The notes: a model not told the origin generated them from the letters alone. A stretch of 64,000 bases of DNA from an uncultured Chthonomonadaceae bacterium (GCA_964519955.1 CAZFLM010000014.1:40673-104672), one strand, 5' to 3'. Counted from the stretch's first letter, positions 7,026 through 7,374 are shown. Numbers and translations are program-made.

Positions 7026-7093
7026 CCTCTACCTCCAATCGGAAAGCCATCCTACTGACACGGTACAACGCGCGGGGGTTCAGGAACGGCGTA

Positions 7094-7109
7094 TGCATTC
7101 TACGTGCCA
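7094..7109 (-). promoter_or_regulatory. Sigma-54 (-24/-12) promoter for the eCIS operon
   Basis: The minus strand reads TGGCACGTAGAATGCA. Against the consensus TGGCACG-N4-TTGCW this matches 11 of 12 defined positions with exact GG-N10-GC spacing. It lies about 70 nt upstream of the ATG at 7025. Confidence 0.6.
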
Positions 7110-7149
7110 AACAGGCAGAGTGTTCGGGAAATGGGGAGAAGGTGAAGAG

Positions 7150-7177
7150 GTCGAGCGTCGAAGGTCGAAGGTCGAAC
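7150..7177. repeat. Four tandem heptamers GTCGAGC GTCGAAG GTCGAAG GTCGAAC (candidate upstream activator site)
   Basis: Read directly from the sequence. The array sits 41-68 nt upstream of the sigma-54 -24 element and is followed by a G-run tract at 7181-7209. Confidence 0.5.
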
Positions 7178-7374
7178 GGCGGGGTGGTGCGGGGCGGGCG
7201 GCGGGGCGGATCGAGGGCCTCCGAGTGTGCGGACGTCTTGGTGGCTCCGCCGCAAGTACATGGTGCTGGGCGCCGCCGCGCGAGTCCGCGGAAGAGGACG
7301 GCTGTACAGAAGGGCCGCTCAGCGATCATGCGCCAGCGGCCGGTCAACAGCGGGGATGGACAACACATAGGGTG

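What the first reader, a model, noticed from the sequence alone, without database searches (positions are those of the whole stretch)
7026..7374. Near-consensus sigma-54 promoter, heptamer array and G-run tract upstream of the eCIS operon
The minus strand at 7109-7094 reads TGGCACGTAGAATGCA. Against TGGCACG-N4-TTGCW this matches 11 of 12 defined positions with exact GG-N10-GC spacing. It lies about 70 nt before the first eCIS ATG.

Between 41 and 68 nt further upstream are four tandem heptamers (GTCGAGC GTCGAAG GTCGAAG GTCGAAC, 7150-7177). A G-run tract, GGGGTGGTGCGGGGCGGGCGGCGGGGCGG (7181-7209), follows and has G-quadruplex potential.

Sigma-54 promoters require an enhancer-binding ATPase, so eCIS firing or assembly here would be signal-gated. 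How eCIS loci are regulated is largely unknown. A second promoter of the same class at 13114 precedes a PEP-CTERM gene, which hints at a shared regulon.
Basis: partly seen in the sequence, partly recalled or inferred. Interest (0 to 1): 0.65.

Follow-up and report, generated by a model that had tools for sequence, protein, structure and literature searches.

The report
Sigma-54 promoter before an eCIS operon
A very good match to a sigma-54 (activator-dependent) promoter sits just upstream of a phage-tail-like injection-system operon in an uncultured Armatimonadota bacterium, so the system is probably switched on only by a signal-activated ATPase; the nearby heptamer repeats and G-rich tract have no demonstrated role.

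Summary
The sequence features are all present as described. The -24/-12 motif at 7109-7094 (minus strand) is probably a real sigma-54 promoter.

- A matrix built from 29 Salmonella sigma-54 sites scores it at 20.3 bits. The second site, at 13114, scores 21.9. The next-best site in the window scores 9.8.
- None of 200 simulated windows held two such sites. No site in 2.7 Mb of control DNA reached 20 bits.
- Both sites are intergenic, co-oriented with a gene, and 68 and 89 nt before its start codon.

The host is Armatimonadota, close to Chthonomonadales, not Planctomycetota as I first inferred. A published table lists a full-length sigma-54 in Chthonomonas.

Related eCIS loci support the reading. 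About 10 of 60 informative loci, plus one with identical gene order, carry a sigma-54 activator gene directly upstream. Most of these have a GG-N10-GC motif between the activator gene and the operon. Other relatives use a consensus sigma-70 promoter or GerE regulators instead.

Not supported:
- the heptamers as activator sites: they are direct repeats, closer to the promoter than is typical, and arrays of other heptamers occur elsewhere in the window;
- the G-quadruplex: such motifs are not enriched;
- a shared activator regulon: the two promoters share no upstream motif.

No rpoN or activator gene lies in the window.

The parts
7092..7110 (-). Sigma-54 type -24/-12 promoter element, TTGGCACGTAGAATGCATA. 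GG is at 7108-7107 and GC at 7096-7095.
   Evidence: Sequence read. It matches 11 of 12 defined positions. It scores 20.3 bits with the Salmonella matrix, against a training range of 16.6-29.4. No sigma-70-like promoter was found in 7026-7374.
7026..7083 (-). Predicted 5' leader. The start site near 7083 is inferred as about 12 nt downstream of the -12 C. A GGAGG ribosome-binding site lies at 7036-7032.
   Evidence: Inferred from promoter geometry and the sequence. The leader RNA folds no better than shuffled sequence (z = +0.78).
7148..7177 (.). Four tandem heptamers, GTCGAGC GTCGAAG GTCGAAG GTCGAAC on the plus strand. They span about -67 to -94 from the predicted start site. Role unproven: either a repeat produced by replication slippage or a regulator site.
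   Evidence: Tandem Repeats Finder reports period 7 and 4.1 copies. This unit forms no other cluster in the window, but heptamer arrays of other units lie at 45182-45274 and 56650-56683. The array is identical in two independent Logan assemblies.
7181..7209 (+). G-run tract, C-rich on the coding strand. It fits the canonical G4 motif but is compositionally ordinary.
   Evidence: The window holds 4 G4 motifs against 5.8 +/- 2.3 expected. As RNA the surrounding region folds no better than shuffles (z = 0.09).
7313..7341 (-). GC-rich hairpin 34-62 nt after the vapC stop codon. Likely terminator or insulator of the vapBC unit.
   Evidence: Fold energy -26.4 kcal/mol, z = -2.97, matched by 1 of 200 shuffles. 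It lacks a long U-tract, so the consensus terminator scan did not call it.
7375..8058 (-). vapBC-like toxin-antitoxin pair immediately upstream: a PIN-domain gene at 7375-7749 and a small upstream gene at 7753-8058. A sigma-70-like promoter lies at 8085-8057.
   Evidence: PF01850 PIN, E = 1.2e-8. Promoter scan.
6144..7025 (-). First gene of the eCIS operon, 293 aa, no Pfam family. Homologues lie directly upstream of the sheath gene in related loci.
   Evidence: No Pfam or NCBIfam hit. tblastn finds 29-41% identical homologues adjacent to the sheath gene in 18 of 80 loci. The same position is occupied in L083, L084 and L085.
1..6094 (-). Rest of the eCIS operon inside the window. Sheath 4451-6094, tube 3932-4441, a 258-aa zinc-ribbon protein 3159-3935, a Pro/Ala-rich protein 2255-3157, Pvc16_N 1014-2243, and the N-terminus of an AAA ATPase at 1017-1 that runs off the window.
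   Evidence: Pfam hits, translations. Gene order is identical in L084 and L085, which continue with AAA ATPase, VgrG (Phage_GPD), Phage_base_V and eCIS_core.
13114..13131 (+). Second sigma-54 type promoter, TGGCACGCAATGTGCAAT, 89 nt before the PEP-CTERM gene at 13219-13884.
   Evidence: It scores 21.9 bits, the best site in the window. PEP-CTERM domain. The plus-strand frame is the coding one, with third-position GC of 0.87-0.93.

Best explanation
The element at 7109-7094 (minus strand) is a sigma-54 (RpoN) dependent promoter for the eCIS operon.

**Proposed mechanism.** RNA polymerase carrying sigma-54 binds the -24 GG and -12 GC elements and stays in a closed complex. An enhancer-binding AAA+ ATPase, encoded outside this window, binds somewhere in the roughly 265 nt upstream. 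It uses ATP hydrolysis to open the promoter. Transcription then starts near 7083 and runs through the 293-aa gene, sheath, tube, Pvc16_N, AAA ATPase and the genes beyond the window edge.

A hairpin just after vapC (7313-7341) probably insulates the operon from vapBC read-through. Expression would then be off by default and depend on a signal.

**What is shown and what is inferred.**
- Shown: motif quality, position and rarity; the eCIS identity of the operon; the recurrent pairing of related eCIS loci with a sigma-54 activator gene plus a GG-N10-GC motif.
- Inferred: that sigma-54 is present in this genome, where the start site lies, which activator acts and where it binds, and that the hairpin terminates transcription.
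- The heptamer array and the G-run are probably incidental.
For: **Motif quality and rarity**
- The motif matches 11 of 12 positions with exact spacing.
- It scores 20.3 bits, inside the range of 29 ChIP-supported Salmonella promoters (16.6-29.4). It is more than 10 bits above the third-best site in the window.
- None of 200 simulations gives two such sites. No site reaches 20 bits in 2.7 Mb of control loci.
- Its -12 region, GAATGCATA, resembles the validated hycA, zraP and fdhF promoters listed in PMC3844500 Table 3.

**Position**
- It is intergenic, co-oriented, and 68 nt from the ATG, with a ribosome-binding site present.
- The chance that both window sites are promoter-eligible is about 7e-5.
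- No sigma-70-like promoter lies in the 349-nt spacer. A stable hairpin follows vapC.

**Sigma-54 in the lineage**
- IleRS places the organism nearest Chthonomonadales, in Armatimonadota.
- Supplementary file 8 of PMC12316311 lists a full-length sigma-54 in Chthonomonas calidirosea T49, CCALI_01002.
- The second site precedes a PEP-CTERM gene. In Proteobacteria this class has sigma-54 promoters about 71 nt before the start codon (PMC1569441).

**Relatives**
- Ten of the 80 loci carry a sigma-54 activator gene on the same strand 1-2.5 kb upstream of the sheath gene; 60 of the 80 have at least 2.5 kb upstream. PF00158 was confirmed in nine, at E = 1e-45 to 1e-64; the tenth (L043) is a partial gene identified by sequence motif only.
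- Six of the ten have a GG-N10-GC motif matching at least 10 of 12 positions between the activator gene and the operon. The expected number is 0.39 (P about 3e-6).
- L084 has the same gene order as the window and carries an activator gene plus CGGCCCGGCAATTGCT upstream.
Against: - No rpoN and no activator gene lies in the 64 kb window. The rest of the genome could not be read.
- The Fimbriimonas (Armatimonadota) genome paper lists only rpoD, rpoE and fliA sigma factors (PMC4072686), so sigma-54 is not universal in the phylum.
- The nearest Armatimonadota eCIS, L085, is driven by a consensus sigma-70 promoter, TTGACA-N18-TATAAT, with no sigma-54 motif. Another same-order relative, L083, has GerE regulators. 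Of 17 loci with a homologue of the first gene, only L006 has a comparable motif within 350 nt upstream. The promoter class is therefore not conserved.
- No close relative exists for footprinting. The best sheath hit is 61% identical, and the first gene finds only itself and one 30%-identical hit in the word-indexed protein search, although tblastn recovers 29-41% homologues in 18 loci.
- No recognisable enhancer was found. The GGACA-N4-TGTCC dyads of the activator-linked relatives are absent.
- With a matrix that ignores the spacer columns, the significance is weaker: 6.5% and 2.5% of simulations reach the observed scores.
Confidence: 0.7

Rival explanations
1. The motif is a chance or non-productive match. 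The operon would then be transcribed from an unrecognised sigma-70 or ECF-type promoter in the spacer, or by read-through from the vapBC promoter at 8085-8057.
For: - No rpoN or activator gene lies in the window.
- Related eCIS loci use other promoter classes: a sigma-70 consensus in the Armatimonadota locus L085 and GerE regulators in L083.
- No canonical U-tract terminator separates vapC from the operon.
- A weak ECF-like GAAC-N15-CGTGTC lies near 7073-7049 (read). Chthonomonas is reported to be rich in ECF sigma factors (PMC4959169).
- Matches of 9-10 of 12 positions occur at chance frequency.
Against: - Two sites of 20-22 bits in one 64 kb window, both promoter-eligible, are very unlikely by chance.
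- The consensus scan found no sigma-70-like promoter in 7026-7374.
- A stable hairpin follows vapC.
- The ECF-like match carries little information and was not tested.
Confidence: 0.2
2. The promoter is real and the four heptamers are the activator's binding sites. The G-run would modulate activity through a DNA G-quadruplex.
For: - The heptamers lie upstream of the -24 element at about -67 to -94. This GTCGA-type cluster is the only such array in the window.
- The array is identical in three assemblies.
- The G-run fits the canonical G4 pattern.
Against: - Known activator sites are usually dyads 70-150 bp upstream (PMC3844500). The activator-linked relatives use GGACA-N4-TGTCC dyads.
- The heptamers are direct repeats with a 7-bp period, so successive copies do not face the same side of the helix.
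- Heptamer arrays of other units occur in two other intergenic regions, so this looks like a genome-wide repeat habit.
- The second sigma-54 promoter has no similar motif.
- G4 motifs are at or below the compositional expectation.
Confidence: 0.15
3. Sigma-54 holoenzyme binds here but acts mainly as a roadblock or parked complex that blocks vapBC read-through, rather than as the operon's promoter.
For: Sigma-54 forms stable closed complexes, and many sigma-54 sites found by ChIP are not promoters (PMC3844500).
Against: - Non-promoter sites in that study are mostly inside genes and score lower. This site is intergenic, high-scoring, and positioned like a promoter before the first gene.
- Relatives pair an activator gene with such motifs.
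Confidence: 0.05

Closest known systems
Sigma-54/VasH-type control of type VI secretion gene clusters
   Same: A contractile, phage-tail-derived injection machine placed under a -24/-12 promoter that needs an AAA+ enhancer-binding activator. T6SS reviews found describe RpoN control.
   Different: T6SS is a cell-anchored system. Its activator, VasH, is usually encoded inside the cluster. Here the machine is an eCIS (Afp/PVC-like, with Pvc16_N), the host is Armatimonadota, and no activator gene is linked.
Sigma-54 promoters upstream of PEP-CTERM genes (PrsR/PrsK system; Haft et al. 2006, PMC1569441)
   Same: The window's second site has the same layout: a single PEP-CTERM gene, a large upstream spacer, and a GG/GC motif 89 nt before the ATG. 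The published mean is 71 nt with SD 38.5.
   Different: The published system is restricted to Proteobacteria. It includes a 17-nt 'motif 1' ending in TTTACA about 63 nt upstream. No TTTACA is present in 12932-13113, and the host is not a proteobacterium.
Known eCIS regulators: GerE/LuxR-type, BTAD and RfaH/AnfA-like (Geller et al. 2021, PMC8213781)
   Same: Regulators are encoded next to eCIS operons. L083, a same-order relative, has two GerE genes upstream.
   Different: The main text of that paper does not mention sigma-54. Sigma54_activat appears only in a supplementary table. As I read its columns, it shows 49 occurrences, odds ratio 1.59, 4 phyla, class 'Shell'. The window has no adjacent regulator of any of these kinds.
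eCIS loci with a dedicated activator cassette (L006, L032, L038, L042, L043, L046, L060, L066, L070, L073, L084)
   Same: They belong to the same sheath family at 39-59% identity. L084 and L006 also share the first gene. A GG-N10-GC motif lies before the first eCIS gene.
   Different: Those loci encode the PF00158 activator directly upstream. Most also carry a small conserved ORF resembling a winged helix-turn-helix protein (L042, L070, L073, L006, L066, L032, L043, L084) and GGACA-N4-TGTCC dyads. The window has none of these. Its motif is much closer to the TGGCAC consensus than theirs (TGGCTC or GGGCCC, below 13 bits).

Membership tests
Sigma-54 (RpoN) dependent -24/-12 promoter | GG and GC dinucleotides separated by exactly 10 nt, within TGGCAC-N5-TTGCW | tested here: met
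   TGGCACGTAGAATGCA matches 11 of 12 positions. The single mismatch is at -15, a position also variable in validated promoters.
Sigma-54 (RpoN) dependent -24/-12 promoter | Score comparable to experimentally supported promoters and above genomic background | tested here: met
   It scores 20.3 bits against a training range of 16.6-29.4. The third-best window site scores 9.8. None of 200 simulations has two such sites. No site reaches 20 bits in 2.7 Mb of control DNA.
Sigma-54 (RpoN) dependent -24/-12 promoter | Intergenic, co-oriented with the gene, tens to a few hundred nt upstream of the start codon | tested here: met
   It lies 68 nt before the ATG at 7025, inside a 349-nt spacer.
Sigma-54 (RpoN) dependent -24/-12 promoter | rpoN present in the genome | not testable with these tools
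   Only the 64 kb window is available, and it contains no RpoN-box match. Lineage-level support: the nearest named relatives are Chthonomonadales, and Chthonomonas calidirosea has a full-length sigma-54 (PMC12316311 supplementary file 8). The Fimbriimonas genome paper lists none.
Sigma-54 (RpoN) dependent -24/-12 promoter | A cognate enhancer-binding ATPase and its binding site | tested here: inconclusive
   No GAFTGA or sigma-54 interaction domain gene lies in the window. No recognisable dyad enhancer was found. The activator could be encoded elsewhere in the genome.
Sigma-54 (RpoN) dependent -24/-12 promoter | Transcription start about 11-13 nt downstream of the -12 GC, dependent on rpoN | not testable with these tools
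   This needs 5'-RACE, dRNA-seq or a reporter assay.
Enhancer (UAS) for a sigma-54 activator: the heptamer array | Dyad-symmetric sites, usually 70-150 bp upstream of the promoter | tested here: not met
   The array consists of direct 7-bp repeats 41-68 nt upstream of the -24 element. The typical distance is quoted from PMC3844500.
Enhancer (UAS) for a sigma-54 activator: the heptamer array | Recurrence at other promoters of the same activator, or conservation in relatives | tested here: not met
   The second sigma-54 promoter shares no motif with this region, and no other cluster of this unit exists in the window. Conservation cannot be tested because no close relatives exist.
G-quadruplex regulatory element | Four runs of at least three G with loops of 1-7 nt, occurring more often than composition predicts | tested here: not met
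   The pattern is present at 7181-7206. However, the window has 4 such motifs against 5.8 +/- 2.3 expected. Folding was not tested.
Extracellular contractile injection system (Afp/PVC-like) | Sheath, tube, Pvc16/Afp16-type cap, AAA ATPase, spike and baseplate genes in one operon | tested here: met
   Sheath, tube and Pvc16_N are in the window, with the N-terminus of the AAA ATPase at the window edge. The syntenic loci L084 and L085 continue with AAA, Phage_GPD, Phage_base_V and eCIS_core. The spike and baseplate genes themselves lie outside the window.
eCIS with a dedicated activator cassette (as in L084, L006, L038) | PF00158 activator gene immediately upstream, a small wHTH-like ORF, and GGACA-N4-TGTCC dyads | tested here: not met
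   Upstream of the operon are vapBC and an ABC transporter. tblastn finds no small-ORF homologue, and no such dyads are present.
Proteobacterial PEP-CTERM cis-regulatory region (PrsR box plus sigma-54 site): second promoter | A sigma-54 motif about 71 nt before the start codon, plus 'motif 1' ending in TTTACA about 63 nt upstream | tested here: not met
   The sigma-54 motif is present 89 nt before the ATG. No TTTACA occurs in 12932-13113 (definition from PMC1569441).

The most novel reading that the evidence does not exclude
Gating by sigma-54 and an activator may be a recurrent, so far undiscussed way of controlling a whole clade of eCIS across at least four or five phyla. The common form would be a cassette: a PF00158 activator, a small wHTH-like protein, GGACA-N4-TGTCC enhancers and a -24/-12 promoter. 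The Armatimonadota locus here would be a variant that keeps a near-consensus promoter while its activator is unlinked. That would tie production of the injection particle to a cell-wide sigma-54 'cell exterior' programme that also includes a PEP-CTERM surface protein.
Probability: 0.35. Interest if true: 0.6.

Novelty: new member of a known kind. Interest (0 to 1): 0.42.

Why it matters
How eCIS operons are switched on is poorly understood. The main genomic survey names only GerE, BTAD and RfaH-type regulators (PMC8213781).

A sigma-54 promoter makes expression strictly dependent on an activator. It therefore gives a concrete handle for experiments:
- find the activator and its signal to learn when the particle is made;
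- or drive silent eCIS loci from uncultured bacteria with a promiscuous activator.

The comparative result gives the idea generality beyond this one locus. About one in six related loci with enough upstream sequence carries its own sigma-54 activator.

The concept itself is not surprising, because T6SS clusters are known to be controlled this way.

Tried and rejected
- **Planctomycetota origin.** I first inferred this from DUF1559 plus prepilin-type proteins. I rejected it after the best named IleRS hits proved to be Chthonomonadales, in Armatimonadota. Armatimonadota also carry many PulG-like pseudopilins (PMC4072686).\n- **Phylogenetic footprinting.** This was not possible. The only contigs carrying the first gene are 100% identical to the window. 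The JGI metagenome scan found nothing. The protein database holds only the gene itself and one 30%-identical hit. The best sheath relative is 61% identical. The closest IleRS relative is not syntenic upstream.\n- **Rfam.** No RNA family matched anywhere in the window.\n- **Leader structure or riboswitch.** The leader RNA is unstructured.\n- **G-run as part of a terminator hairpin.** As RNA the region folds no better than shuffles, although the DNA fold gave z = -2.5.\n- **Shared enhancer between the two sigma-54 promoters.** None was found.\n- **Conservation of the promoter before homologues of the first gene.** Only L006 of 17 loci has a comparable motif.\n- **Literature.** Searches linking eCIS with sigma-54, RpoN or enhancer-binding proteins returned only T6SS or unrelated papers.\n- **Salmonella matrix on the activator-linked relatives.** It does not detect their motifs (TGGCTC type, below 13 bits). 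That evidence rests on GG-N10-GC match counts and position alone.

Full report
**1. Observation**

The region 7026-7374 is the spacer between a vapC-like PIN gene (7375-7749, minus strand) and a 293-aa ORF (6144-7025, minus strand).
- On the minus strand, 7109-7094 reads TGGCACGTAGAATGCA. This matches TGGCACG-N4-TTGCW at 11 of 12 positions with GG-N10-GC spacing.
- The motif ends 68 nt before the ATG at 7025. A GGAGG lies at 7036-7032.
- The heptamers (7150-7177; period 7, 4.1 copies) and the G-run (7181-7209) are as described.
- The second motif, at 13114-13129 on the plus strand, lies 89 nt before the ATG at 13219. That gene encodes a 221-aa protein with a signal peptide and a PEP-CTERM domain (TIGR02595 above its cutoff; C-terminal VPEPG...RRRAR).
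- Its plus-strand frame is the coding one. The long overlapping minus-strand ORF has the wrong codon-position GC pattern.

**2. Is the motif more than chance?**

Simple match counts show that only the two top sites stand out.

| Matches (of 12) | Observed | Expected |
|---|---|---|
| at least 11 | 2 | 0.33 |
| at least 10 | 6 | 5.9 |
| at least 9 | 40 | 43 |

I built a log-odds matrix from the 29 intergenic, ChIP-chip-supported sigma-54 sites of Salmonella (PMC3844500 Table 3).
- The window's sites score 21.9 bits (13114) and 20.3 bits (7109). The training sites range from 16.6 to 29.4. The third-best window site scores 9.8.
- 0.5% of 200 Markov simulations reach 21.9 bits. None has a second-best site at or above 20.3.
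- Ignoring the AT-biased spacer columns weakens this to 6.5% and 2.5%.
- As an empirical control, no site in 2.7 Mb (both strands) of 83 fetched loci reaches 20 bits.
- About 3.7% of strand positions are promoter-eligible. The chance that two random sites matching at least 11 of 12 positions both land there is about 7e-5.

**3. Context**

The genes downstream on the minus strand are, in order:
- the 293-aa ORF;
- sheath (PF04984/PF17482);
- tube (PF06841);
- a 258-aa zinc-ribbon protein;
- a Pro/Ala-rich 300-aa protein;
- Pvc16_N;
- the N-terminus of an AAA ATPase that runs off the window.

Loci with the same gene order (L084, L085) continue with AAA ATPase, VgrG, Phage_base_V and eCIS_core. 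The eCIS call is therefore sound.

The 293-aa gene finds almost nothing by word-based search. It nevertheless has 29-41% identical homologues directly before the sheath gene in 18 of 80 related loci, so it is the first gene of the operon.

Other features of the spacer:
- There is no sigma-70-like promoter in it. One lies before vapB, at 8085-8057.
- A stable hairpin at 7313-7341 follows vapC (-26.4 kcal/mol, z = -3.0). It plausibly terminates vapBC transcription.
- The leader RNA is unstructured.
- Rfam finds nothing.

**4. Host and sigma-54**

DUF1559 and prepilin-type proteins first suggested Planctomycetota. IleRS corrects this. The best named hits, at 60-66% identity, are Chthonomonadales and Chthonomonadaceae in Armatimonadota.
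- Supplementary file 8 of PMC12316311 lists a full-length sigma-54 (AID-CBD-DBD) in Chthonomonas calidirosea T49 and in Ca. Nitrosymbiomonas.
- The Fimbriimonas genome paper lists only rpoD, rpoE and fliA.
- Sigma-54 is therefore plausible in this lineage but not shown for this genome.
- The window contains no rpoN and no activator gene.

**5. Relatives**

Ten of the 80 GTDB loci carry a sigma-54 activator gene on the same strand 1-2.5 kb upstream of the sheath gene. Sixty of the 80 have at least 2.5 kb upstream. PF00158 was confirmed in nine, at E = 1e-45 to 1e-64; the tenth (L043) is a partial gene identified by sequence motif only.
- The hosts are Acidobacteriota, Betaproteobacteria, Gemmatimonadales and Verrucomicrobiae.
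- Six have a GG-N10-GC motif matching at least 10 of 12 positions between the activator gene and the first eCIS gene. The expected number is 0.39, giving P of about 3e-6. Weaker versions occur in the others.
- L084, at 59% sheath identity and with the window's exact gene order, has an activator gene, then CGGCCCGGCAATTGCT, then a small ORF, then the homologue of the first gene.
- Most of these loci share a small wHTH-like ORF. Many share GGACA-N4-TGTCC dyads. The window has neither.

Other relatives use different solutions. L083 has two GerE regulators. The Armatimonadota locus L085 has a textbook TTGACA-N18-TATAAT promoter and no sigma-54 motif. Only one of 17 homologues of the first gene has a comparable motif within 350 nt upstream. 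Promoter class therefore turns over between lineages. Sigma-54 is one recurrent solution, not an ancestral constant.

**6. The heptamers and the G-run**

The heptamers are direct repeats with a 7-bp period, 41-68 nt from the -24 element.
- Typical enhancers are dyads 70-150 bp upstream (PMC3844500).
- This unit forms no other cluster in the window.
- Heptamer arrays of other units occur at 45182-45274, where they form a hairpin between convergent genes, and at 56650-56683. This suggests a general repeat habit of the genome.
- The array is identical in three assemblies.
- The two sigma-54 promoters share no upstream 9-mer, and their best local alignment equals shuffled controls.

Canonical G4 motifs are not enriched: 4 against 5.8 +/- 2.3 expected. 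The tract also lies upstream of the predicted transcript. I regard both features as unproven and probably incidental. The heptamer array remains the most visible candidate site if the activator turns out to bind direct repeats.

**7. Literature**

- Sigma-54 control of T6SS is well known.
- Sigma-54 promoters before PEP-CTERM genes are known in Proteobacteria (PMC1569441). The window's second site fits that layout but lacks the TTTACA box.
- For eCIS, the surveys name TetR-like Afp6 (PMC6899500) and GerE, BTAD and RfaH (PMC8213781).
- Sigma54_activat appears only in a supplementary enrichment table. As I read its columns, it shows 49 occurrences, odds ratio 1.59, 4 phyla, class 'Shell'. Examples are Pelobacter Ppro_0378 and Leptothrix Lcho_3032.
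- I found no paper that discusses sigma-54-dependent eCIS.

**8. Verdict**

The core interpretation, a sigma-54 promoter that gates the eCIS operon, is well supported by motif statistics, position and comparative genomics. I put it at about 0.7. It still needs rpoN and an activator to be shown in this genome.

The heptamer enhancer, the G-quadruplex and the shared-activator regulon are not supported.

This is a new member of a known kind of element. It carries a moderately interesting implication for the little-studied question of eCIS regulation.

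Noticed in passing
L038 ~9591-9827, L042 3438-3863, L073 9550-9918, L066 8122-8367, L032 5778-6056, L043 1609-1896, L006 8710-9048, L084 ~2349-2627: A small conserved ORF of about 80-95 aa, with the motif ILxYLRxNPxAQDTLxGIxEWWLP...YRI, sits between the sigma-54 activator gene and the eCIS genes. It gives only sub-threshold winged-helix hits (Penicillinase_R, GntR). 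It is not called as a gene in L084 and is absent from the window.
   Followed up: partly
L038, L060, L066, L073, L032, L043: 100-250 nt upstream of their GG-N10-GC motifs: Repeated GGACA-N4-TGTCC dyads. These are probably the enhancer sites of the eCIS-linked activators. Their -24 elements read TGGCTC or GGGCCC rather than TGGCAC.
   Followed up: partly
window 45182-45274: An array of AGAAGCC-type heptamers is followed by its reverse complement (CTTCTGG-type). Together they form a long hairpin between two convergent genes, probably a bidirectional terminator built from heptamer repeats.
   Followed up: no
window 56650-56683 and 58985-59162: A further intergenic heptamer array (CAAGTGG, 4.9 copies) and a 40-43-nt repeat present in 4.4 copies. 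These may be REP-like intergenic elements.
   Followed up: no
window 7375-8058: A vapBC-like toxin-antitoxin pair lies directly between an ABC transporter operon and the eCIS promoter region. It is followed by a strong hairpin at 7313-7341.
   Followed up: partly
window 10454-12931: A single 825-aa ORF combines a solute-binding domain (SBP_bac_1) with an ABC permease domain (BPD_transp_1). This is either an unusual fusion or an assembly or frameshift artefact.
   Followed up: no
L085 6880-6930: The orthologous eCIS in another Armatimonadota MAG (GCA_030649165.1) is preceded by a perfect sigma-70 consensus, TTGACA-N18-TATAAT. Orthologous operons therefore swap promoter class.
   Followed up: yes
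window 35305-37376: Two adjacent prepilin-type proteins with N_methyl and DUF1559 domains. These are often taken as Planctomycetota markers, but here they occur in an Armatimonadota genome.
   Followed up: partly
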